Assembly: GCA_000182565.2 (NCBI GenBank)
Contig: KQ257457.1
From: Spizellomyces punctatus DAOM BR117
Taxonomy: Eukaryota
Length of the DNA: 64,000 bases
Reading direction: 5' to 3' (one strand)
In this document: positions 1-64,000 of the stretch, piece after piece
Position numbering within the stretch: the stretch's first letter is position 1
Layout: every line of letters begins with the position of its first letter
Program-made: the position numbers and the translations under genes
The notes under the pieces: model-generated
What the model was told of the DNA's origin: nothing
What the model saw: only the letters and a program-made list of their open reading frames with translations
Database searches by the model: none

Positions 1-112
1 GCCCCACAATCCACTGGCGGACATCGTCGAAAGGCCGTCAGAAACCAGAAATGCAGATGCGGAGGAGCTCTGTAAACACCTCGGCGACCTAAACATCCTT
101 ATCCGAGATCTG

Positions 113-1771
113 ATGATCGAAGCCCAGGATTCGCAGAAAAGATATTACGATTTATCGCGACGACATTTGGAGTTCCGGAGAGGAGATAAGGTGCTTCTGA
201 GCACGAAAAACCTAGCAGGGTATGAGTCCAAGATCGCTCCGAAATGGCTGGGACCAGTCACGGTGACCGACTGTAACCCTCTCCGCGACAACTACGAGTT
301 AAAACTGCCAGACAAGATGAGACGACTTCATCCATGGTTTCACATATCGAAATTACGTCCGTACCAGAAGCCTGTCGACGCCGAAACTGAGGAAAAGGTC
401 GCGGAAGCACAAGCGGAGGATTCCGACGCTTCAGATGGCGAGTTTGAAGTGGAAGCGATAGTAGACCATCGAACCAGGCGCGGAAAACGTCAATTTCGAA
501 TACGTTGGTCCGGATACCCACCCCATGAGGATACCTGGGAACCAGAGGAAGCCCTAACAGAGGCTTCCGAAGCCTTAGAAGAGTACTGGAGATCCAGAGC
601 TCCCACTAGCGCGCTAGTAGAGGACTCTTTGGTAGTCAGCCTTGCAGGCGACGCCCCGGAAGATACGGCTTATGCTTCCGACCACCAATGCTTCGCGGTT
701 TATCCGGACGATAGCTCACGTGATAATCACGCCCTCTCACCAGAAAGAAAACCAGTTTCGCGTGGCTTACCTCACCAGTCGAGAACGCCACACCAAGCCT
801 CCCGATCACGCTTACGCGCGTCCGAGCTGTCAAAATCAGCCGGCGACGACCTTAAAAGGACGCCCCTGCACGCTCCCCCTCTTTTTTCTTCTTCAACCGC
901 CCACGACCTACTTCCCTTACACACTCACTCTGCTTCGCAAACCCCTTCTATCGACACCGAAACTAAAACTTCCATTTCTAACACAATGAACACCGATCTC
1001 AGAGGACAAGCAGGAGTGAGCGTACCCTCCACGTACATGTCCGGCTACCCTTGGGAGGAAGACTCGGGCGACTTCGAGGCCGAGGGCGTGCTGGATCGCC
1101 TTGGGGTTGCGATCGCTACCTGGGTTCACTCCTGGGTTCATCAGCTTCGGACCAACCCCAACGCGCCGCTGCAGACTCCAGGGCATGAGTTTTGGCTGGG
1201 AGTCGACGCTCCGAAACCTTACGCGGTGGGCCAGCCCCTCACAAACCACATCGCGGACCCCTACAGCAAGGCCACCGATGGTGGTGAAGCAGCGGTCGGA
1301 ATAGTTGCTGACGCGAAAAAACCCGGAAAAAGAGGGCGCCCAGCTCCGTGCGCCGCTTGGCTCGACCGCGGGGTTCCCCAACACGAGGCGGGAAGCCGAA
1401 AAACGGCTCCGTTCACCGATTGGCCGAACGACGACGCCCACGAGTTTGCGTCCGCCGTCATTGAAGCAGCTAGGACGGTGCTCCTAAGGACGGCGAACGC
1501 AGCGGAAGCCTCTGCAAGGCTCACCAGACCCCGACATCACGAGCACGCGGAGTACCATTTCCGCGCGACAAACCTGAAAAGGGCCGCGGAGACCTTTACG
1601 GCCCTCTACGTAACCAGAACTGGCCCCGACGTGACCCCGGGTACCATCGTTCGTACCGCAACAGATCAAATCTGGTTTTGTTGCAACGTCAGTGGCCGTG
1701 CCAGTATCATCTGGGTCGTGAACCAAGATGCAGATGAAGCGGACCCCACAGATCCGGTACCGACCTGGTAA
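113..1771 (+). CDS. Retrotransposon Pol C-terminus (integrase SH3-like tail + chromodomain) with a ~390 aa in-frame extension; the reading frame begins upstream of the window
   Basis: 552 aa open frame; chromodomain at about 437-595; unrecognised sequence after it; stop about 50 nt before the PPT. Confidence 0.85.
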   Translation: MIEAQDSQKRYYDLSRRHLEFRRGDKVLLSTKNLAGYESKIAPKWLGPVTVTDCNPLRDNYELKLPDKMRRLHPWFHISKLRPYQKPVDAETEEKVAEAQAEDSDASDGEFEVEAIVDHRTRRGKRQFRIRWSGYPPHEDTWEPEEALTEASEALEEYWRSRAPTSALVEDSLVVSLAGDAPEDTAYASDHQCFAVYPDDSSRDNHALSPERKPVSRGLPHQSRTPHQASRSRLRASELSKSAGDDLKRTPLHAPPLFSSSTAHDLLPLHTHSASQTPSIDTETKTSISNTMNTDLRGQAGVSVPSTYMSGYPWEEDSGDFEAEGVLDRLGVAIATWVHSWVHQLRTNPNAPLQTPGHEFWLGVDAPKPYAVGQPLTNHIADPYSKATDGGEAAVGIVADAKKPGKRGRPAPCAAWLDRGVPQHEAGSRKTAPFTDWPNDDAHEFASAVIEAARTVLLRTANAAEASARLTRPRHHEHAEYHFRATNLKRAAETFTALYVTRTGPDVTPGTIVRTATDQIWFCCNVSGRASIIWVVNQDADEADPTDPVPTW

Positions 1772-1818
1772 TTGACGTCCCAACACCCCCGCTCGGAGCG
1801 CCGGTGCGTTGGCTCTTC

Positions 1819-1828
1819 AAAGGGGGGA
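1819..1828 (+). promoter_or_regulatory. Polypurine tract (PPT)
   Basis: AAAGGGGGGA directly abutting the TG of the LTR. Confidence 0.9.
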
Positions 1829-2428
1829 TGTAACGACGAGGACGTCTTCGAGAGATCGCGAGTAAGCCCAAATCGGACGCGGGAAGCACGAATCGCGTGA
1901 CCAACTCCACCGATTGGGTTACCGCGACCGAAAAAACCGGTTCGGAGAATGGCAATTGGCGCATTAGATTTCAGCGTGCCTCGTACAACCTGTGGAGGCC
2001 CGAGCCAGTGCGGAAAAGGAAGAGATCGGTACCGCCACCAATAAATCAGTTGCGGTGCAGCGACACCCATTAGTTTAGTTTAGTTTAACAGTTTATCCAA
2101 GAATCTTGTATAAAAAGGATGTATTCAATAAAATAAGTCGGGGGCAGAAGCCGTAGCGACAAAAAATCCCCATAACTCGCTTCTCAACTCCAATCTTAGG
2201 TTAACAGGAACCTAACAGAGCGCTTCAACGGCCTGATCACCCGTACCGAAGCCTCTAAATCCTGCTCGGTTCACAACTAACCGACTCTCCTTGCCTCTCG
2301 CCCCCAAGTCGCTACCGACGCCCAAAGAAAGGATTCGGAGACTATGATTCCTAGTACGGCCACCCACATAACCTGCTAGGAGACCCAAGTCGTCTTTACC
2401 GTAGTCTACCAACAAAAAATCCGTTACA
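1829..2428 (+). repeat. 3' LTR (600 bp)
   Basis: Starts TGTAACG and ends CGTTACA (7 bp terminal inverted repeat). Internal TATAAAAA near 2110 and AATAAA near 2127. Colinear with the copy at 61371-61976. Confidence 0.95.
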
Positions 2429-2944
2429 GGTTGGCCTCTGTCATGGACCCGGAAAAGCATGGACTATGCCAATAGCACTTTGACCCTCCAGTGGTGGAAG
2501 GACAGCGGCCTGGAATGCCGGTGGTCAGCGACGTCAATGGACATTGCAACGAGACGGAACAGGGTCGACATGTTGCAGTGGTGGAAGGACAGCGGTCTGG
2601 AATGCCGCTACTCATGGCGTGGCATGGCAGAGGCGACGAACAATTGTCCCATGCCCAGTGTGGACGCCCTCCACTGGTGGAAAGACAGTGGCTTTGAACT
2701 CAAATACGAGGACGAATACCACAAAATTTACGAAGGCCTCCAGGACGTCGCGCATCGTGGGTACGACGATTTCGACCGTCTTCGACGGTTTTTGCCGGTC
2801 TGGCGCTTTTGGAAGCAAAGTGGGTTGCCCTGGGAACACAGTCATCGGTCGTGGGATGACCCGTTTTGGTACAAGCGCTGGCCGCTCGAGCTTACCGCTG
2901 AGCTGAAGGAAAGGGTCGAGAGGGAGTTTCTGCAGGGATTATAA
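2429..2944 (+). pseudogene. 5'-truncated ankyrin-like repeat protein (WWKDSG repeats), interrupted by the Gypsy insertion
   Basis: Three to four LxWWKxSG(L/F) repeats. The frame is open right up to the LTR end (GWPLSWTRKSMDYA aligns with the repeat unit GLECRWSATSMDIA). Confidence 0.6.
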
Positions 2945-3765: not shown

Positions 3766-4632
3766 TTATTCTGCCTTCTTCCCCTTCACCAAGCTTCCAT
3801 TGCCTTTGTCCGCTCCTAGTAGTACCTTAACCCAGCCAATTCCCCCATACCTTTCTCTAAACGCATGATCTGTCCCATGCAGCAAATCCAACGCACCCAT
3901 AACCCCAAAACAACTCGTGAATTTCTCATGATGCATGTCATGGAACCTAGCGATCCCGCGATGAAGAGGCGAATCATACCCAGCATGGACTGTTACAGTG
4001 GTAAAGAGCGCCATAGAAAGCCAGAGCCACATAGTCACCAGGTGCGAACCCATCAAGATCGGACCGACGACCACAGGGACAATGTTGGAAAGGATATGCT
4101 CAATTGGATGGGCATACTCGGCCGACATGCCCACGGGTGCCGTGAACTGGTGGTGAAGCTTGTGAATATACTTGTAAATTGGTCGTGCGTGAAGTAGCCG
4201 ATGACTGTAGTAAAATAAAATCTCTTCCGCGATCAAGGATATCGTAAAATCCCGCATGATTTCCAGGGGCGACGGAAGTGTAGGTGAGACATGGACGCCA
4301 CGTTGTAGCATGAGCGGATATGTCAGCCATAACAGGGGCCCAGCAACAAAGAACTGGTTAAACAGCACCAAAAGAGCGCACCGACGTAGAAGCTTGGGTG
4401 GGGGATGAACTTCTGGCTGGATTTTGTAGCGATGAAGGAATGAGGGCCGGTACACGTCAACGAGGAGGTAGAGGAGGGACGGGATCCAGAAGACAAGGAA
4501 CTGGACCGAGAAAGTCCCATATAGAAATAGGCTCCTGTCCGAAAACTTGTTTGTAATAGATGTCCATGCTGGTGCCAGCAGAGATCCTCCTAGAGGAGCA
4601 TTCAGAAATGATACAGTATGGTTGCCGGGCAT
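3766..4632 (-). CDS. Fatty acid hydroxylase / sterol desaturase family protein (FAXDC2/ERG25-like)
   Basis: His boxes HRLLH, HKLHH, HxxxH (TVHAG) and HDMHH; YAHPIE motif; hydrophobic segments; single exon. Confidence 0.9.
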
Positions 4633-54974: not shown

Positions 54975-57900
54975 CTACCCTCTCGTTCTACCCACGCTTC
55001 CCTTCAGACCCTGCCAGGCATCAAGCCTCATCATTGGCTCCCCACCTATGGGCGGCTTCTCTAGAAATCCAATCTCCACGAAGTATCCTAAATACAGTCC
55101 CATCAGCTCATTCATACTCTTGCATACCACCCCGCCGGGCCTCTCTTCCAGTACTTGTTTCACGTGGCTATCATCCAGCTCCGCGCTCTTGGTACTCGTA
55201 GGCAAATCATCCAAAACAAAATGCAAAAGGGGATACAGTGCATTGTCAGCAGTTGAAAGTGTAAGGTCCATCAATGCAGTTCGCCAATGGATGTAGTCCA
55301 CAGGCACGAGAGTGTAACCTTTGCGCACCAAATGACCAAACATGTCATCGTATTTGAAGCGGTCTGAATTATGCATGTGGAAGACACCTAGAGCGAGTGA
55401 AGTCGGTGTCGACGCTACTTCAGCGATTGCACCCGCAACGTAGTCCACTGGGCACATGTTGACAAGATTTGCAATACGTGGCACTTTACCGAGTTGAATG
55501 CAGCCTTTGACCAGTCGCCACAAGAAATCATCGGTGTTTCCAACTCCGGTAGTAGAGTCACCCACAATATACCCTGGTCGGATGATAGTCGCCGGCACAC
55601 CTCGTTCGCGTGCTATCATAATCAGCTTTTCGGACACCCACTTAGTCTGACCGTAACCACTACGCAATCCTTTTCTCGAGCCTTCGAGATCGTCAGTTTC
55701 AAGAACCTTCCCTTTTTCTCCGAGCTCAAGCTTGCGCATATAATGCTCGGTATCCAATACGGCGGTGGAAGATACAAAGTGGAGAGGCTTAAGGTGATGC
55801 CGTGTAGCCAGTCGTAAAGATTCCAACGTGCCGAGGACATTGGGTGCTCGGAGTTTATGATAGGGGTACACCCAGTGAACTAGCGCTCCATTGTGAACAA
55901 TCACGTCTACGTCCGTGGACAGATATTCCCATTGCTCTTCTGACACACCCAGGCGCGACAACGCAAGGTCACCACAGATAGCCTCCACCCGGTCGGCTGT
56001 CAACCACTGGTCTTCCCATACAAGGTGCCGTTCGCCATTGTCTCGTATTCTTGCCAATGCGTCCTGAGGGGTTTTAGCTCTGACAAGAGCAATCACTCGA
56101 CTATTAGGGAATCGCCTCAACAGCGCACCGAGAATGAAAGCACCCAAAAATCCTGTCGCCCCAGTCAAAAAAAACACCGGACGGCCAACGGGCAGTCCCT
56201 CCTTAATCGGAAAATCAAACTGCGGTAGGCCAGTTGCGGAGATCGCCGGATCATCCAGCGCATCCAAATCAGCAGCGTAATCTACCTCTTCCTCCTCCTC
56301 AACCGCTACCTGCTCACCGGCTCCTCTTTCGGTCTTCCCACTCTCATTACCAATCATCCGCAAGTCGCCACCACGAATGAAATCTACTTCCTTTGCCATC
56401 CCTCTAACTGTGGGCTCTCTATATACAATGCTAAGAGGGACTTCGACCGCCAGTGTCTTACGAACTTCGAAAACAAGCCGTGTCGCTAAAATAGAATGTC
56501 CGCCCAAATCAAAGAAATTATCATCAATTGGAATGCTCGTGGATGGTCTTCCAAGTACGTTTGACCAGATATCACGAATGCCCAGCTGAATGGGCGTGAG
56601 TATATTGTCTTCACCAGTTGCAGGAGCGGCCGCAGTAAGAGCGGTGTCTGGGAAAGGAAGAGCGTTCTTGTCGACTTTACCGTTGGGCGTCAAAGGCATT
56701 CGCTTCAACGGAAATATCACTTTGCAACGAATGGTCCATTAAAATCCGTCGCCAATTTAGACTGCTACTATGCGTACTCACCTTTCGGTACAGCATATCC
56801 CGGTAGCTTTGTCTTGAGGTATTCTCGCACGTCCTTGATAAACGCTGCCACATCAACATCTGCATCCAGTGGAACGATGTAACTGACCAGAGTCTTTTCC
56901 TCATCCTTGTCACGTCTGACTAATGTCACATTCTCACGAACATTGGAATGTTGACTAAGATGAGTGTCAATCTCCTTTAACTCGATCCTGAATCCTCGAA
57001 TTTTGACTTGATCGTCAGCACGTCCTGTGCACTCTACAGAACCGTCAGGGCGGTACCTCCCAAGATCGCCAGAACGATACATCCTGTCACGTGGTCCCTT
57101 GTAATAAGGCAGGTTACGGTCAGGTTCAGGTCCCGATGGATTGAAAGGATTTGGGACAAATTTTTGGGCGCTGGCTTCGAGGTCAAGATATCCTTCTGCT
57201 AAGCCTCCGCTGCGGACATAGATTTCGCCGACCTCTCCAATACCACAAAGTAATCCTGAGTTATTGACTACCAGTAGCTGGACATTTTTCATGCCCTTTC
57301 CTGCCGGCATAATATCTTTCTGCTCAGAAAGGAACCCGGGGTTCAACGACGTAGGTGGAATGTCAAGATACGATACAGCACGCTGGGTCTCGGTCGTGCC
57401 GTACATGTTGATAACATGGGTATTCGGTGCCAAGTACTGGAGACGGAGGACATCTCGCTTCGTCAGAACGTCCCCCACAAAGAACGCATTGCGAAGCGTA
57501 GGAATTGGGTGGGTTGCGTTAGCGGACAATAGCTGACCCATGGCAGGGGTGAGATGAGTGACCGTAATCCCATGGTGAGCCATCCATTCTGCCAACCGGC
57601 CAGGCGTGCCAATGTCTTCCGCTGTTGGGATTCGCAGCTGTGCACCGAGGAATAATGGTGTAAAGACTTAGCACTCCGTTAGCAATGCTTTGCACTTCAG
57701 TAGCAAAGTAAATTTGTCGCTACTTACTATCGCGTTGAATTGGGTCATGTGCAATCCCACTCAACATTGTGAAGCGTTCATGCTCAGTTAATCCAAATTC
57801 GTGCCTCATCCAGGGATAAAAATGCGTCAATGAAAAATGACGACCTTTGACGCCTGAAAATGAAATCGCGTTATTCAAGGGAAATCAGAATCATGTGCGG

Positions 57901-59477
57901 GAATGTGTCCCAACAAACCTTTCGGTATGCCAGTACTTCCACTTGTGAAGCTCAACGTGCAGCCGCTGTCGGGGCCTAGCACTACAGCTGGTTCGATACT
58001 GGCATTGTTCTGATGGGGTGCTAGAACATCGGTGCCAGTGGAGCTGCCACCGACTAGAAGTCCATCGTCAAGAATCTCCAATGCAGGCACCTCACACTTG
58101 ATGTCAAGATTATCCTTAATATATCCACGGACATCTTCATGAAGCTCGCCAGCCTTACGTAGAATGACCAATCCGCGAGGTTTTGCGACCGAAAGGTAAA
58201 TATTCTGGCGAGACGGAGGATACGCTGGATCTATTTCACAGTCATTATGATGTCCATCCTTCAGCCAAGGGTCAACTATCCACCTACCAATGACACTGAA
58301 AATCGCTCCGGCTTTAAGGACACCCATGACGGCCACCACCAAGTCTACTCCTCTGTACGAATACAGCACTACAACATCCTCTCTCTCGATACCATTTGCA
58401 ATCAAATGGTGTGCAAGGACGTTCGAAGCTTCGTTAATCTGCTTGAAAGAGAACTCCCGCAGGTCTCCAAAAGTACTTCCTTGTGCCTCCCTACTTTCTA
58501 CGACGCATGTACGATCAGGGTGGCTTTTGGCGTTTCGGGCAAAAATATCGGTGATTGCTCCCTCAAATCTGTCCCATTCGAGATCAGCAGTGGGATCTGG
58601 GAGCAATGTTCTGCTTCGCGCAGTTAGGAGAGAAATGCGGCCAATTGTTGCCTGAGGATCTTCCGCAGCCGATTGGAGAACAAGTTGCAGTTGATCCAGC
58701 ATGTCCGTAATACGACTGTTCGAGAACAAGACAGTATTGTACACGACTCGGATCTCAATGGGAAGAAGACGGCGAAGGGTTGGGGCCTGGGAAATGAAAA
58801 TGGTGATGTCACATGTGGATGAAGTGGTCGTCGAAGATAAAGTGTCAGGAGTAGTGTCTGTCAGGTTGAAAAATCGGACTTTGAAGAGCGACTGCTGTTG
58901 TCCAGATTCGGGTCGGACGGAGGACGGTGCGAGCAAGTCATTCAATAACGCAGCAAATGGGATTTCGTCGGCTAAAGCATCCTCCTCGGCCTAAAACAGA
59001 TGTGCCATCAATGCAAGGCTGAAAGTTACTGGAAGCTCTGCGACTTTCTACCTTGAGAACAGTCTGCACTGCTGTTGCAATTGTATCATTATCAGTTAGT
59101 GGAAATCTTAATACTAAAGGATTTGAAGATCGAGAACTAGATCCAACGGTAATATCCTCCTCGCCAGTGTATTTGTGTAAAAGAATGGAGAAAGCAGCGA
59201 GCAAGATGGTGAAAGGGGAAATTGTCGACGACGATCCATGAGCGGCATGTTCTTCAGATACTGCTCCGTAGTTAGGCTTGATATTCAGCGAAAGCTTGAG
59301 AATCGCAAGAGAGATGGCCTCTGGAACTTGTAAGACCTGCTCCGCTTCCACAATGCGGTGTGGGATGGGCCGAGGATAGTCTGTTGGAAGTACAAGTTCG
59401 GTCAAGCTTGAAAGGCGCTCTTTCCATCGCGATATGAGGGTAGGACTGACGGGTTCGTCGGGTAGCGTCGCTCCCAT
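54975..59477 (-). CDS. LYS2: Alpha-aminoadipate reductase (adenylation-PCP-reductase), multi-exon
   Basis: [87 protein letters not shown]. Confidence 0.97.
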
Positions 59478-60548
59478 GTCGTGCCAACGGATGCGGTGTT
59501 GAAAAGGTGGCTACGGAAGAGGAAACGAGCAACTAAAGCAAGTCAAAAGGGCGGAGACGCTGCTGGAGAGTGCACTGCTGATGGTGAGGAGATCTTGATC
59601 CAGATCAAACCTCGTTTATCCATATAGGGTTACATGAAACTCCACGTGATCTTGGTTCGTGCTCTGCGAAGGTACAGTAAGCAGGCTGGAGATCGAAGGA
59701 AAACGCAAGAGATTTCTGCAGTGAATGCCCATTAAAATGCTGCTCTGCAACCGTAGATGAGCAACGAGTGTTGCAATTCATAAGCAACACAAGTTAATTC
59801 ATATTTCTTCACCAAAAAGTGACTGCTACCGGCACTTGAGCGAACCTGTTACAGAAATCCTTTGAAGGAGGATACAGATATAGATATTATAAAACTGTAA
59901 ATAATCACCTCTCTATCATTCACTCGCGTTGGATATCATATGTGCGTACAGAGTATGGAGCGACGGGCTTGTCTAAATGTGTTGAATGAGCATCTTATAA
60001 TACAATAGAATAACTCGGCGTGACCTGAAAATCACATGACCACGTGTCGAAAATACGTGTCGGAATGGCTGCTTGATTGCTGTCGGGAATGCCCCAGACT
60101 GCTTTATTTTAAAGACCTCAACTAATCTTATGAGGATTGGTGCATCTTTTTTCTGGGGCATCTTTGTGGATATTACAAGGGACAGTGCTGCTTACTTTCG
60201 GGTCTTTTTTGCTTTATATGCCTTTTCCTGACTCTCTGTAAAAGCATACCCATTCTGCAGCTTTCCCCATACCAAATCTACACCCTGCAATTCATCAACA
60301 TGCCCAGAGCCAGGTCCAGCAGCTGAAAAGGTGACTTCTACAGGCCCTATGAGACTTCCCATCTGCGCCCTAAAAACAAACCGGTTCCAACCCATGAAAC
60401 CATGGCATCGATATAGAAGATGTCCCAGCCCCATAATCTGCTGCATAAATAGCTGTGAACCCAACAGTGATTCCAACCAATTGAATCATAATTTTACTCG
60501 ATTTAGACTCATGAACTATGATTTGATAATGGTTCGATGCACAAACGA

Positions 60549-60643
60549 TGCTCCACCATTGAAAAACGGGTCCAATATGTGCGGCAATGAACGGATTGAT
60601 TGAATATTCTGCAGTTGCTCCACCATTGAAAAACGGGTCCAAT
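60549..60643 (+). repeat. 28 bp perfect direct repeat upstream of the Fanzor ORF
   Basis: TGCTCCACCATTGAAAAACGGGTCCAAT at 60549-60576 and 60616-60643. Confidence 0.9.
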
Positions 60644-60724
60644 GCGCAGTTGTCATATCTCTATATAAACCCGCCTTCTCTGCCCATTTCCCAGGTTTTC
60701 ATCCATTTTTCTATTCCAATCATC

Positions 60725-61370
60725 ATGCCGCCAAAGAAAAAGCAAAAGCTTGAAAAACTTGACAAACCCACCTTACATACCTGCAACAAAACTTCCTTTG
60801 CAAAAGCTTTCCTGCCTAATGAGACCTACCACCAATGGCTTCTAGATTACATCGCCATCATCCATCAACTTGCCGACCATGCTTCCCACGCGCTGAAATT
60901 CTATCTCCTTTCATCAGCGCCAGTTTTTCCCACAGTAAATCAAGAGAGGATTGAAGCCATCCTCTATCTTCTCAACAAAGGTGAATCATGGCAACCAAAA
61001 ACCGGTGCAAAGAAGGCATTATGTGAATCCTTGTTGCCATACATTTGTCAGTACTGCCACATCATCAGCTTTGTTCATCCAAATCTACAAAAAGAGCAGC
61101 AATCAGTCAATTACCTGACAGTGAGTATGATGGCGAATCTGAAGGTCAACATCCAGGAACACTTCATGACGATGCTGCTCCGGTACATTAATCTGCAGCT
61201 TGACGTGAAGGGACAGAAGCAGTGACTGCCACTGAAAAGCGATGCGCGGAAAGCTTTCTTTGCTCGTCTTCACTACTTGAAGTCGGTTTTCCTTTTCGAA
61301 ACCATGCCAGAATCACTGGATGACTTGACTGCTGAAGAGAGTGAACTTCTAGAAGAGATTTGGTCCCTTA
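60725..61370 (+). pseudogene. Fz1: Fanzor1 (eukaryotic TnpB-like RNA-guided nuclease, SpuFz1-like), N-terminal third; premature stop and Gypsy insertion
   Basis: MPPKKKQKLEKLDKPTLHTCNKTSFAKAFLPNETY..LLDYIAIIHQLADHASHALKFY...EQQSVNYLTVSMMANLKVNIQEHF..MLLRYINL..DVKGQKQ*LPLKSDARKAFF...EEIWSL parallels the SpuFz1 N-terminus as recalled. TATATAAA at 60662; in-frame TGA at 61223-61225. Confidence 0.88.
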
Positions 61371-61976
61371 TGTAACGATGAGGACATCTTTGAGAGATCG
61401 CGAGTAAGCCCAAATCGGATGCGGGAAGCATGAATCACATGACCAACTCCACCGATTAGGTTACCGTGACCGAAAAAACCGGTTTGGAGAATGGCAATCA
61501 GCGCATTAGATTTCAGCGTGCCTCGTACAACCTGTGGAGGCCCGAGCCAGTGCGAAAAAGGAAGAAATTGGTACCGCCACCAATAAATCAGTTGCGGTGC
61601 AGTGGCACCCATTAGTTTAGTTTAGTTTAACAGTTTATCCAAGAATCTTGTATAAAAAGGATGTATTCAATAGAAAAAACAGGCGGGGGGGCAGAAGCCG
61701 TAGCGACACTAAAATCCCCACAACTAGCTTCTCAACTCCAATCTTAGGTTAACAGGAACCCAACAGAGCGCTTCAACGGCCTGATCACCCACACTGAAGC
61801 CTCTAAATCCTGCTCAGTTCACAACTAACCGATTCTCCTTGCCTCTTGCCCCCAATTCACTACCGACGCCCAAAGAAAGGATTTGGAGACTACGATTCCT
61901 AGTACAGACATCCATCTAACCTGCTAGGAGACCCAAGTTGTCTTTACCATAGTTAACCAACAAAAAATCCATTACA
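61371..61976 (+). repeat. 5' LTR (about 606 bp)
   Basis: TGTAACG...CATTACA, colinear with 1829-2428. Confidence 0.95.
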
Positions 61977-61990
61977 TGGTGGAGAAGCAC
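61977..61990 (+). promoter_or_regulatory. Primer binding site, complementary to a tRNA 3' end (tRNA-Ala-like, ...CUCCACCA)
   Basis: TGGTGGAGAAGCAC directly after the LTR terminal CA. Confidence 0.75.
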
Positions 61991-62119
61991 GATGAACTGC
62001 CTTCCCCTCTCAAATTCAGCTGAAAACCTTATTCAGTCATACCAAAAACTCTTGCGCAAACCAAGATCTGCTCAGGTAGCTACTCGGAAACCTTTTCTCT
62101 TGTTTCAGAAACAGACTTC

Positions 62120-64000
62120 ATGAAACTGAGAATGATGCCAGTCGAATGCTCTCCAACACGAGGCTGCTCACCTGTGATCCAGACTCATAGTCAGGGTCCT
62201 GTGGAGGACATCGAAGTCCCTCCCGCAACATGCCCGAGGCATTCGGGGACCACTTCCATCGAACTGGAAGCCCCTAACTTGGCCATGATGGCCTCTGAAG
62301 TGGCAGCGTTGAAAGAAGACATTGCCCGCTCGACTGCTGCAATGCAGTTGGCAACTCAAAATCTTATGGAACAGCTTCATAGGCTTTCTGAACGTCAGAC
62401 AGTGGCGGATGAGTGCCTTGCATGAGCCTTAGAAGCCCTAGCACATCGCCCGCTGCCTGAACAACCTCTCATAGCACGAGCTACAAGAGAGTGGTCCGCA
62501 ACCCCATGGGAAACATCGGACACACCAAGGGAGCATACCGAACCAAGTCTTTCAGGTCCGGTGCCTCCAATCCAAGTGCCAGCAGCCCCGTGGGCCAGCA
62601 ACACCAAGGTCGATTCCTTGAAAGCAAAGGACATACCCAGGTTTATGGGCAAAAGAAACCAAGACGTTGAAGAATGGCTTAACAAAGTCCAACTTCTTCA
62701 AAACATTAGCACAACATTGGATGCCAGGATGGTACAGCTCCTACCAGCCATGATAGCCGAGAAAACTCCTGCTGATGCTTGGTTTTACACTCTGGAAGCC
62801 CAGGAAACTCACTTGTGGACTTGGAAAAGGTGGAAAGAAGAACTGCTTCAAGAGTTCCGAGACCCCCTAACCGAGTCCAAGTGCAAAGCTGAATATGTGT
62901 GCTGTCATGTGAACTCCAAAGAATTTCACAGCTTTCTCATGTTCATTGACCACAAAACTCATCTCCGGCGCCTCACATATGGCAACTGGGCAAACATAGA
63001 ATGTCCTGCTGACCAGCATTTCGACCTAATAGTCGAACAATTGCCCAGTGACATCCAAATCATGGTCAAATCCTGTAACGTCACAAACCTGACCAAATTA
63101 AAAGACTTCCTGCGCCTTTATTTCAGCTCTGATGACACCAGAAAATGAGACCCTTGCTACAGTGGTGCTGCAGAAGCCCAGAAGAAGTCACAAAAGACCG
63201 GAACCAACAAAGGCCCTAAGCAGATGGCTCAACATAAAACCAGAAACCCCGAAAAGGGTCGCAATGGTCCTCAGAAGATGGTTCTGGACCCCAACAAGGA
63301 ACCACTGGCACCCTGCAAATTCTGTCAGAAAAAGCATTGGAATGTTTTCTGCTGGCAGAACCCGAACTGAAAAGATCCTGAAGATGGAAAGAAGGGACCA
63401 TATGGAGCACCCATGCCCGCAGGTTGGAAACCCAAACAGGAGTCCAAGAAGTCGTACATAGTGGAGCTGGACTCGACATCCGCTACCACCAAGACTCTTT
63501 TTTCGGCTTCGGAACTGGAAAGGACAGCCACTGCTAATCAAGGATTCCACACCATTGGATTCTTTCATTCACCCAAGCACTCGGAATCAACAATTTTGAT
63601 GACTGCACCTCTTTCTGAGGTCACGGAGACTAAGGAAGAGGACCCCCGCATGCCCACGCAGGGCTGGGACCGAGTCTGGGACAACATAGCCATCATCTGG
63701 GGCACCCCGAAAGTGGCTCTGATGATGGGCGACAACCCCCGCGTGCTCAGCTTCTTTGCCAAAGAACCGAAGCAAGGTGCTGGGCACCTTGGGAATGACC
63801 CCTACACAGTCGCGTGGAGTTCCCACCACCTCTACATTGCTGCTGCAACTGAAGCTGACAAGGATTGAATCCTGCGAAAAGTCCAAGAAGACAGTACCCC
63901 TCATTTGATTCTCCTTGCCTGGATAAGGCTCGACAAATGCAAGAAATTCTTGATGTGGAGCTCTGAAGATCCTGTTATCTTTGATTCTTATGCCAACCTG
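62120..64000 (+). pseudogene. Decayed gag(-pol) of the Gypsy element
   Basis: ORF fragments 62120-62425, 62561-63148 and 63413-63868 separated by TGA stops; capsid-like and Zn-knuckle motifs. Confidence 0.85.

What the first reader, a model, noticed from the sequence alone, without database searches (positions are those of the whole stretch)
60662..61370. Fanzor1 RNA-guided nuclease gene, inactivated by CpG decay and a nested chromovirus insertion
Seen: a TATA box, an ORF with an N-terminal NLS (PPKKKQK), an in-frame TGA after KGQKQ with the protein-like frame continuing about 48 codons, and an abrupt break at the LTR. Established (recalled): this matches the SpuFz1 N-terminal WED/REC region. 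The TGA falls where SpuFz1 has Arg, and other Arg positions read His/Trp/Gln (YHQW, RLHY, NLQL), as expected from CpG deamination. Some segments (SSAPVFPTVNQER, SWQPKTGAKK) differ more from the recalled sequence, so this may be a distinct subfamily. The RuvC half and cis omegaRNA should lie beyond the Gypsy element, outside the window.
Basis: partly seen in the sequence, partly recalled or inferred. Interest (0 to 1): 0.8.

Follow-up and report, generated by a model that had tools for sequence, protein, structure and literature searches.

The report
Dead Fanzor1 gene stub, retrotransposon-interrupted
This is the first third of a copy of the already well-studied SpuFz1 (Fanzor1) RNA-guided nuclease gene of the chytrid fungus Spizellomyces punctatus, killed by a stop codon, loss of its transposon end, CpG mutation decay and an inserted LTR retrotransposon; it is an ordinary genomic relic.

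Summary
Window 60725-61369 (+) encodes 215 codons that match SpuFz1 residues 1-221 of 638 (PDB 8GKH, E=1.4e-104). They are 86% identical to the paralogue SPPG_09210. An in-frame TGA at 61223 sits where SpuFz1 has Arg. The frame runs on 48 codons and stops at 61370/61371, where a 606-bp LTR begins (TGTAAC...ATTACA, 61371-61976).

That LTR is 91.5% identical to the 3' LTR of a second element at the window start, whose integrase tail carries a chromodomain. The gag-like frame behind it resembles the gag of a chromodomain Ty3/Gypsy polyprotein.

CpG decay is shown at DNA level. CpG observed/expected is 0.47-0.55 here against 0.90 for the window. At 27 of the 40 listed read differences the window has TpG/CpA where other copies have CpG, including three of the five TGA stops.

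The RuvC half and omegaRNA are not in the window. The family and its partial copies in this genome are published, so interest is low.

The parts
60469..60724 (+). 5' non-coding part of an SPu-1 (Fanzor1) transposon copy, running from just inside where the left inverted repeat should be up to the ATG. The IR itself is absent.
   Evidence: By eye, 60470-60527 matches positions 36-93 of the published SPu-1 consensus (56 of 58; sequence seen) and the SpuFz1 locus. In the RNA run, 48 reads have loose ends just before 60469 that carry the tail of the IR of other copies. The 30-nt IR motif has 0 matches in the window at <=3 mismatches. Its best local score in 60200-60480 is 8, and 184 of 300 shuffles reach that.
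60549..60643 (+). Two exact copies of a 28-bp module (60549-60576 and 60616-60643), 67 bp apart. The module occurs once in the SpuFz1 locus and is missing from the SPu-1 consensus.
   Evidence: blastn self-hit, 28 of 28. Compared by eye with the sequences shown.
60662..60669 (+). TATA-like motif TATATAAA, 63 bp upstream of the ATG.
   Evidence: The same motif stands at the same relative place in the SPu-1 consensus and the SpuFz1 locus, by eye. Promoter function is inferred.
60725..61370 (+). Fanzor1 pseudogene fragment of 215 codons, equal to SpuFz1 residues 1-221 of 638 (REC-lobe part, with the PPKKKQK basic motif at residues 2-8).
   Evidence: REC-domain residues Q152 and N159 of SpuFz1 (PMC11423790, passages) fall within the aligned range.
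61223..61225 (+). In-frame TGA where SpuFz1 and SPPG_09210 have Arg.
   Evidence: At 61223, 49 of 50 reads of DNA run X20 read C, meaning other copies have CGA.
61371..61976 (+). 5' LTR (606 bp, TGTAAC...ATTACA) of the inserted Ty3/Gypsy-type element.
   Evidence: 91.5% identity over 613 columns to 1828-2434. Boundaries come from the alignment.
61977..61994 (+). Primer-binding-site-like stretch directly after the LTR, beginning with TGG.
   Evidence: Read. No tRNA match was tested, and 0 tRNA genes were found in the window.
62120..64000 (+). Single gag-like frame running off the window end, with four in-frame TGA codons (62423, 63146, 63368, 63866).
   Evidence: It is 89% identical (300 of 337) to P0022. 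BLASTP against P0043 gives E=1e-16; P0043 is a 1773-aa polyprotein with zf-CCHC, RVT_1, RNase H, integrase, SH3_Tf2-1 and Chromo domains.
2..2434 (+). Sister element of the same LTR family: integrase C-terminus with SH3_Tf2-1 and Chromo domains (ORF 2-1768), a polypurine tract, and the 3' LTR (1828-2434).
   Evidence: CpG observed/expected is 1.11-1.23.

Best explanation
The locus is a dead 5' stub of one copy of the SPu-1 transposon, which carries the Fanzor1 (SpuFz1-family) omegaRNA-guided nuclease gene, in Spizellomyces punctatus.

What is left is the sub-terminal 5' region with its TATA motif and the first 215 codons (REC-lobe part). The copy is disabled in four ways:
- The 30-33-nt left inverted repeat is gone.
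- A CGA Arg codon has become TGA at codon 167.
- Several further Arg codons have become Trp, Cys, Gln or His by single transitions.
- The ORF is cut after codon 215 by the 5' LTR of a Ty3/Gypsy retrotransposon of a chromodomain-bearing family.

That retrotransposon is itself decayed, with four in-frame TGA codons in gag.

The mutation pattern is the one left by deamination of 5-methylcytosine at CpG. In this species 5mC is reported to be confined to transposons. The inferred history is: silencing and methylation of the SPu-1 copy, insertion of the retroelement into the silenced copy, then joint CpG decay.

Shown here: homology, the breaks, and the direction and context of the substitutions. 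Inferred: methylation as the cause, the order of events, and that the stub makes no functional product.
For: - Homology: E=1.4e-104 to 8gkh_P. Nineteen homologues were found, 16 of them named S. punctatus DAOM BR117, the best at 86% identity. In tblastn all 19 hit only 60725-61372.
- LTR and family.
- Missing left IR: and the RNA loose ends at 60469.
- CpG observed/expected: 0.55 for the Fz fragment and 0.47 for the retroelement interior, against 0.90 for the rest of the window and 1.11-1.23 for the sister element.
- LTR pair: 21 of 46 substitutions are CpG in the sister copy against TpG/CpA here, and 1 goes the other way.
- Conserved Arg columns: 3 of 10 are kept, 6 are one transition from CGN, and 1 is a Lys shared with SPPG_09210.
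- Against the closest paralogues: 6 of 25 Fanzor differences and 11 of 37 gag differences are Arg to Q/W/C/H/stop in the window. None is the reverse change to Arg from those residues.
- Reads: run X20 shows 64 places where the window has A/T and reads have G/C, against 23 the other way, of 99 places. Of the 40 listed places, 32 are window T/A against read C/G, and 27 of those 32 are in CpG context.
- Stops: all 5 in-frame stops are TGA.
- Literature: 5mC is confined to transposons in Spizellomyces (PMC12695648, section 9 passage). The SPu-1 and SpuFz1 family descriptions are in PMC3627910 and PMC10432273 (passages).
Against: - The 3' LTR, the target-site duplication and any continuation of the Fanzor ORF lie outside the window. 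A simple insertion therefore cannot be told apart from an insertion followed by deletion or rearrangement.
- No methylation data for this locus were examined.
- The reads used are short (38 nt for X20) and were laid at >=97% likeness. The 'other letters' come from unidentified paralogous copies, not from a defined ancestor.
- 24 of the 46 LTR differences and 13 of the 40 listed read differences are not CpG decay of the window copy.
- No read or contig was shown to bridge 61370/61371. The tables list only part of the records.
- I could not find this locus in Supplementary Data 1 of PMC10432273 by three term searches. Whether it is one of the 42 published loci is open.
Confidence: 0.9

Rival explanations
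1. The Fanzor 3' half no longer exists beyond the retroelement. The stub would then have arisen by insertion followed by deletion or ectopic recombination, or the retroelement landed next to an already truncated copy.
For: The copy has already lost its left IR, so it has suffered at least one deletion or rearrangement. Partial Fz loci are reported in this genome (PMC10432273, passage).
Against: The break coincides to the base with the LTR's TG start. That is what a plain integration gives.
Confidence: 0.25
2. The C-to-T bias comes from a repeat-directed mutator (RIP-like) or from general transition bias, not from 5mC deamination.
For: Fungi have RID/Dim-2-type enzymes (named in the PMC12695648 discussion passage). 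Both decayed elements are repeats.
Against: 27 of the 32 listed C/G-to-T/A differences are in CpG context. In the LTR pair, 21 changes go one way against 1 the other, all at CpG. From my own recall, classical RIP prefers CpA. The sister copy of the same family in the same window is CpG-rich (observed/expected 1.11-1.23), so being a repeat is not enough on its own.
Confidence: 0.07
3. The stub is still a working gene for a short nuclear REC-lobe protein (166 residues up to the TGA), made from its own TATA promoter.
For: The TATA motif, the ATG and the basic PPKKKQK motif are intact.
Against: - Six conserved Arg codons are lost and there is a premature stop.
- CpG decay is equal to that of the neighbouring dead retroelement.
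- RNA reads lying on 60469-60977 carry the letters of other copies. At 60483, 93 of 103 reads differ from the window; at 60790, 24 of 27 do.
- Depth over 60978-61445 is at most 0.76. However, the neighbouring control gene is equally low, so this run cannot decide.
Confidence: 0.03
4. The Fanzor-LTR junction is an assembly artefact that joins two repeats.
For: Both sides are multi-copy. Logan contigs of run X1 break at the repeat borders, and no listed piece spans 61370.
Against: DNA run X20 covers the bin 61212-61445 at about 23 reads per strand, and none of the listed pile-ups of read ends or loose ends is at 61370. Only part of those tables is shown.
Confidence: 0.03

Closest known systems
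SpuFz1 (SPPG_07727, 638 aa; PDB 8GKH and 9CEU-9CEZ), the characterised Fanzor1 omegaRNA-guided endonuclease of S. punctatus
   Same: Residues 1-221 align without large gaps at 76% identity. The N-terminal basic motif, the TATA-containing 5' region and the 28-bp upstream module are the same (by eye).
   Different: Only 35% of the protein is present. There is one premature TGA and six conserved Arg are lost. No RuvC or zinc-finger part, right IR or omegaRNA lies in the window, and the left IR is missing.
SPPG_09210 (P0001), an annotated S. punctatus paralogue
   Same: Closest relative, at 86% identity over 221 residues. It shares the segments SSAPVFPTVNQE, ESWQPKTGAKKAL and NLQKEQQ, which set this sub-lineage apart from SpuFz1.
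   Different: SPPG_09210 is a full-length locus flanked by both IR 'end' features in Supplementary Data 1 of PMC10432273. The window copy is a stub, and 6 of its 25 differences from SPPG_09210 are Arg losses.
SPu-1 transposon family (Bao and Jurka 2013, PMC3627910) and its partial or 'ghost' copies (Saito et al. 2023, PMC10432273)
   Same: Same element: about 2.1 kb, a single Fanzor ORF, 30-33-nt terminal IRs and TA duplication. The papers report 25 copies, or 42 full (19) or partial Fz loci plus 134 ghost loci (passages).
   Different: Ghost elements keep both IRs and the omegaRNA but lack the ORF. This copy is the opposite: ORF start without the left IR. I found no mention of retroelement-interrupted or CpG-decayed copies in the passages I read.
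Chromoviruses (Ty3/Gypsy LTR retrotransposons with an integrase chromodomain)
   Same: TG...CA LTRs, and a gag with a Cys-His knuckle related to P0043. P0043 carries zf-CCHC, RVT_1, RNase H, integrase, SH3_Tf2-1 and Chromo. A sister copy with a 91.5% identical LTR has SH3_Tf2-1 plus Chromo.
   Different: For the inserted copy itself, only the LTR, gag and the first codons beyond are in the window. Its pol and chromodomain are unseen. It has four in-frame stops.

Membership tests
Fanzor1 (SPu-1 / SpuFz1 family) | N-terminal REC-lobe sequence homologous to SpuFz1 | tested here: met
   E=1.4e-104 to 8gkh_P, query 2-215. 76-86% identity to 14 S. punctatus paralogues.
Fanzor1 (SPu-1 / SpuFz1 family) | TnpB-like RuvC domain with catalytic Asp-Glu-Asp | tested here: not met
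   tblastn of 19 family proteins finds nothing in the window beyond residue about 221. The DNA past the window end could not be read.
Fanzor1 (SPu-1 / SpuFz1 family) | C-terminal zinc-finger (TNB/NUC) domain | tested here: not met
   Same tblastn result: absent from the window.
Fanzor1 (SPu-1 / SpuFz1 family) | Uninterrupted ORF | tested here: not met
   TGA at 61223, and the frame is cut by the LTR at 61371.
Fanzor1 (SPu-1 / SpuFz1 family) | 30-33-nt terminal inverted repeats (left end) | tested here: not met
   0 matches at <=3 mismatches on either strand. The local alignment is no better than shuffles, with 184 of 300 reaching the observed score.
Fanzor1 (SPu-1 / SpuFz1 family) | omegaRNA encoded at the right IR | not testable with these tools
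   It would lie beyond the window. There is no right IR in the window and no Rfam match.
Ty3/Gypsy chromovirus | LTR with TG...CA ends | tested here: met
   61371-61976, TGTAAC...ATTACA. Boundaries are fixed by alignment to 1828-2434.
Ty3/Gypsy chromovirus | gag related to Ty3/Gypsy gag, with a Cys-His knuckle | tested here: met
   60 relatives at E<=0.001. I scanned 11 of the 60: 3 have Retrotrans_gag, and P0043 is a full Ty3/Gypsy polyprotein with Chromo. BLASTP to P0043 gives E=1e-16, and the knuckle aligns. Pfam finds nothing in the window's own gag.
Ty3/Gypsy chromovirus | pol order protease-RT-RNase H-integrase | not testable with these tools
   It lies beyond the window end.
Ty3/Gypsy chromovirus | Chromodomain at the integrase C-terminus | tested here: inconclusive
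   Unseen for this copy. Present in the sister copy with a 91.5% identical LTR (Chromo E=1.4e-16).
Ty3/Gypsy chromovirus | Short target-site duplication flanking both LTRs | not testable with these tools
   The 3' LTR is outside the window. The 5 bases before the LTR are CCTTA (61366-61370).

The most novel reading that the evidence does not exclude
The other half of this split copy survives beyond the retroelement with its right inverted repeat. It would then still supply an omegaRNA with its own guide, used in trans by intact SpuFz1 proteins in the way proposed for 'ghost' Spu-1 elements. In that case retroelement-split, CpG-decayed copies would still add to the guide repertoire even though their nuclease gene is dead.
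Probability: 0.08. Interest if true: 0.3.

Novelty: already known. Interest (0 to 1): 0.12.

Why it matters
It matters little. SPu-1 was the founding Fanzor element (2013), and SpuFz1 has since been characterised biochemically and structurally. The same genome is already reported to hold 42 full or partial Fz loci.

The locus is a clean small example of how such copies die in a chytrid: loss of a terminal repeat, nested LTR insertion, and CpG-to-TpG decay. That decay fits the transposon-restricted 5mC reported for this species.

The one mildly useful point is that several conserved Arg codons of the family are CGN, so they are mutational hot spots. A few annotated paralogues also show substitutions there. 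Anyone counting 'intact' Fanzor genes should check these sites.

Tried and rejected
- Whole-genome search: no genome is held for this window, so the DNA past 64000 could not be read.
- Pfam on the fragment gave 0 families. Full-length P0001 and P0007 also gave 0 in this Pfam copy, although PF26935 is precomputed for them. Pfam silence therefore means nothing here.
- Pfam on the window's gag gave 0 families, at E<=0.01 on the pieces and at E<=10 on the read-through.
- The word-indexed search of gag against longer proteins gave no hit among 4656 candidates. The full HMMER search then found relatives.
- tRNA scan: 0 genes. The primer tRNA was not identified.
- Rfam: 0 matches in the window.
- Tandem Repeats Finder did not report the 67-bp-spaced module. 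It is an interspersed duplicate, not a clean tandem array.
- Locating this locus in Supplementary Data 1 of PMC10432273:
  - Three peptides of the neighbouring gene and one of the stub gave 0 hits.
  - The range labels 1_213 to 1_223 hit no fz feature.
  - I read 1 of the 83 parts of that file, so absence is not shown.
- Sequencing runs: no RNA holder was listed.
- Laid RNA run X19, of which about 6 in 100 was read:
  - Reads on the stretch are mostly from other copies. 1223 of 1257 lie only partly on it, and the letters are those of other copies at 60483, 60790, 61555 and 61761.
  - The neighbouring single-copy gene has depth <=0.48. Nothing can therefore be said about expression of this copy.
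- RNA contig run X23 laid nothing.
- The ChIP target of X20 is unknown, so its depth profile was not interpreted.
Intact paralogues exist and have been assayed, so it would add nothing.

Full report
**The observation**

- The region reads as the first-stage reader described. TATATAAA lies at 60662-60669.
- An ATG at 60725 opens MPPKKKQKLEKLDKP....
- One in-frame TGA stands at 61223-61225, directly after KGQKQ. The same frame stays open for exactly 48 more codons, to 61369.
- On the minus strand and in the other frames of 60662-61370, only short ORFs occur, of 56 aa or less.

**Identity of the ORF**

- Read through with X at the stop, the 216 residues hit one PDB sequence at E<=10: 8gkh_P, the MBP fusion of Spizellomyces punctatus Fanzor1. 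The match has E=1.4e-104, with query 2-215 on chain 396-615.
- A search for longer proteins gave 19 homologues among 1141 candidates. Sixteen are named S. punctatus DAOM BR117 proteins and three come from unnamed sources.
- The best is SPPG_09210 at 86% identity. P0007 (SPPG_07727, 638 aa) is SpuFz1 itself, as its translation in Supplementary Data 1 of PMC10432273 shows.
- In tblastn against the window, each of the 19 gave a single hit, all inside 60725-61372. For SpuFz1 these are residues 1-221. The window therefore holds the first 35% of one copy and no other Fanzor fragment.
- REC-domain residues Q152 and N159 of SpuFz1 (PMC11423790, passages) lie in the aligned part. The RuvC and zinc-finger parts do not.
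- Pfam gave nothing for the fragment. It also gave nothing for full-length SpuFz1 in this Pfam copy, so that silence carries no weight.

**Which genome**

- Of eight window ORFs looked up by exact sequence, one (3769-4632, minus strand) is in the collection, on a contig of 1,427,627 bp.
- That is the contig length recorded for SPPG_04925 of S. punctatus DAOM BR117.
- With the 76-86% identical paralogues, this places the window in that genome. It is the genome in which the family was first described.

**What is already published**

- Bao and Jurka (PMC3627910; passages and supplement passages) defined SPu-1. It is a 2149-bp element with 33-bp terminal inverted repeats, TA duplications, 25 copies and a 633-aa single-exon Fanzor protein.
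- Saito et al. (PMC10432273; passages, part 1 of 83 of Supplementary Data 1, and term searches) report 42 loci with full-length (19) or partial Fz genes and 134 'ghost' loci. They describe 30-nt IRs with CA upstream and an omegaRNA transcribed from the 3' IR.
- I could not find this particular locus in their Supplementary Data 1. Peptides of the neighbouring gene gave 0 hits, and range labels 1_213 to 1_223 hit no fz feature.
- Since I read only one part of that file, this stays open. Their figures and PDF supplements were not available to me.

**The 5' side**

- By eye, window 60470-60527 matches positions 36-93 of the SPu-1 consensus (56 of 58) and the corresponding part of the SpuFz1 locus. 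The stretch from the TATA motif to the ATG also matches.
- Upstream of 60469 the similarity stops exactly where the left IR should be.
- The 30-nt IR of the SpuFz1 locus has no match in the window at up to 3 mismatches, on either strand. Its best local alignment in 60200-60480 scores 8, and 184 of 300 shuffles reach that.
- Independent support comes from laid reads. Forty-eight RNA reads that fit from 60469 onward carry, just before it, letters that end like the IR of other copies. A single-copy Logan contig of run X1 covers 59506-60459 and stops there.
- This copy has therefore lost its left terminal repeat.
- Between 60528 and 60657 the window carries about 130 bp that the consensus lacks. 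It includes a 28-bp module present twice (60549-60576 and 60616-60643, 28 of 28). The SpuFz1 locus has the module once. This is a family variant with a local duplication.

**The 3' break and the inserted element**

- Homology to Fanzor ends at 61369-61372.
- From 61370, the sequence matches 1828-2434 of the same window at 91.5% over 613 columns.
- The alignment sets the LTR at 61371-61976 (606 bp, TGTAAC...ATTACA). In the other copy it is preceded by a purine run (AAAGGGGGGA), as expected for a 3' LTR. Here it is followed by TGGTGG..., as expected for a primer-binding site.
- The ORF upstream of the other LTR (2-1768) has SH3_Tf2-1 (E=4.9e-9) and Chromo (E=1.4e-16) domains. That copy is therefore a chromovirus.
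- Behind the LTR at the Fanzor side, one frame runs from 62120 to the window end with four in-frame TGA codons.
- Pfam finds nothing in that frame, and a word-indexed search for longer proteins found nothing. A full HMMER search found 60 relatives at E<=0.001, 12 of them at E<=1e-10.
- I scanned 11 of the 60 against Pfam. Three carry Retrotrans_gag. P0043 (1773 aa) carries zf-CCHC, RVT_1, RNase H, integrase, SH3_Tf2-1 and Chromo. Seven have no family.
- BLASTP of the window frame to P0043 gives E=1e-16 over its gag, with the Cys-His knuckle aligned.
- The inserted element is thus a Ty3/Gypsy-type retrotransposon of a chromodomain-bearing family. Its own pol and chromodomain lie beyond the window.

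**CpG decay**

Four lines of evidence agree.

1. Composition:

| Region | CpG observed/expected |
|---|---|
| Fanzor fragment | 0.55 |
| Retroelement interior | 0.47 |
| Window 2500-59500 | 0.90 |
| Sister element at the window start | 1.11-1.23 |

   The last two 2-kb bins are the lowest of the 32 in the window.

2. LTR pair. Of 46 substitutions, 21 are CpG in the sister copy against TpG/CpA in the Fanzor-side copy. One goes the other way, and 24 are of other kinds.

3. Codons.
   - Of 10 columns where at least 60% of 14 S. punctatus paralogues have Arg, the window keeps 3 (CGG, CGG, CGT). Six read TGG, TGT, CAG, CAA, CAG and CAC, each one transition from CGN. One is Lys, shared with SPPG_09210.
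   - Against SPPG_09210, 6 of the 25 differences in 215 aligned residues are Arg to Q, Q, W, C, H or stop.
   - Against the gag paralogue P0022 (89% identical), 11 of the 37 differences in 337 residues are Arg to H (4), C (3), W (2), Q (1) or stop (1).
   - In neither comparison does the window have Arg where the relative has one of those residues.

4. Reads.
   - DNA run X20 (raw 38-nt reads at 97% likeness) shows 99 places of difference. At 64 the window has A or T and the reads have G or C. At 23 it is the reverse, and 12 are transversions.
   - Of the 40 places listed (62 more were not shown), 32 are window T/A against read C/G. Of those 32, 27 restore a CpG.
   - These include 61223 (the Fanzor TGA, 49 of 50 reads carry C) and the gag stops at 63146 and 63368.
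   - All five in-frame stops are TGA.

The reads must come from paralogous copies, so they give the family's usual letter, not a defined ancestor.

A published passage states that in Spizellomyces 5mC is confined to transposons (PMC12695648, section 9). This supplies a plausible cause, but I did not see methylation data for this locus.

**Expression**

- No RNA holder was listed for the stretch.
- In the one raw RNA run laid (X19, about 6 in 100 read), 1223 of 1257 reads fit only partly and carry the letters of other copies.
- Depth over the copy-specific part 60978-61445 is at most 0.76. The neighbouring single-copy gene is no higher.
- Nothing follows about this copy's transcription.

**Interpretation**

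- This is a relic. An SPu-1 copy lost its left IR, was hit by an LTR retrotransposon after codon 215, and decayed together with that retrotransposon by CpG transitions.
- The order of events, and methylation as the cause, are inferences.
An insertion followed by deletion cannot be excluded; I give that about one chance in four.
- The kind of element, the family, and the existence of partial copies in this genome are all in print, so I rate the finding as already known and of low interest.

Noticed in passing
window 2-2434: A second copy of the same LTR-retrotransposon family runs off the window start. It is CpG-rich (observed/expected 1.11-1.23) and has an uninterrupted 589-codon frame. After the chromodomain (residues 148-197) the frame stays open for about 390 more codons with no Pfam match. 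It may be a young copy with an unusual C-terminal extension, or just an open GC-rich frame.
   Followed up: partly
window 63146 and protein P0022: The gene model of the gag paralogue P0022 ends exactly one residue before the window's TGA at 63146, while most X20 reads (32 of 43) carry C there. The same CGA codon therefore seems to be a stop in at least two copies, either by recurrent hits at one CpG or by shared descent.
   Followed up: partly
window 60725-61369, alignment: A few annotated S. punctatus Fanzor paralogues also show W, Q, H or C at otherwise conserved Arg columns. Examples are the columns aligned to window codons 109, 175 and 183. Some 'genes' of the family may therefore be decaying in the same way.
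   Followed up: no
window 54978-59510 (-): The upstream neighbour, head to head with the stub, is a large multi-domain gene with Condensation-like, AMP-binding, PP-binding and NAD_binding_4 domains. It resembles an alpha-aminoadipate-reductase or NRPS-like enzyme.
   Followed up: partly
window 58404-59807: ChIP run X20 has a sharp depth peak of up to about 145 per strand, against 2-4 in the flanks. It lies over the 5' end of that neighbouring gene. The antibody is unknown, so it was not interpreted.
   Followed up: no
window 13.1-13.2 kb and 16.5-17.7 kb: The window holds 1058 N in two runs (100 and 958 by 2-kb bins). These are assembly gaps or masked stretches.
   Followed up: no
window 60527: 44 RNA reads that fit up to 60527 continue with letters like the short form of the SPu-1 5' region (CCAAAAAATCC...). 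This suggests that copies or ghost elements lacking the 130-bp module are the transcribed ones in run X19.
   Followed up: no
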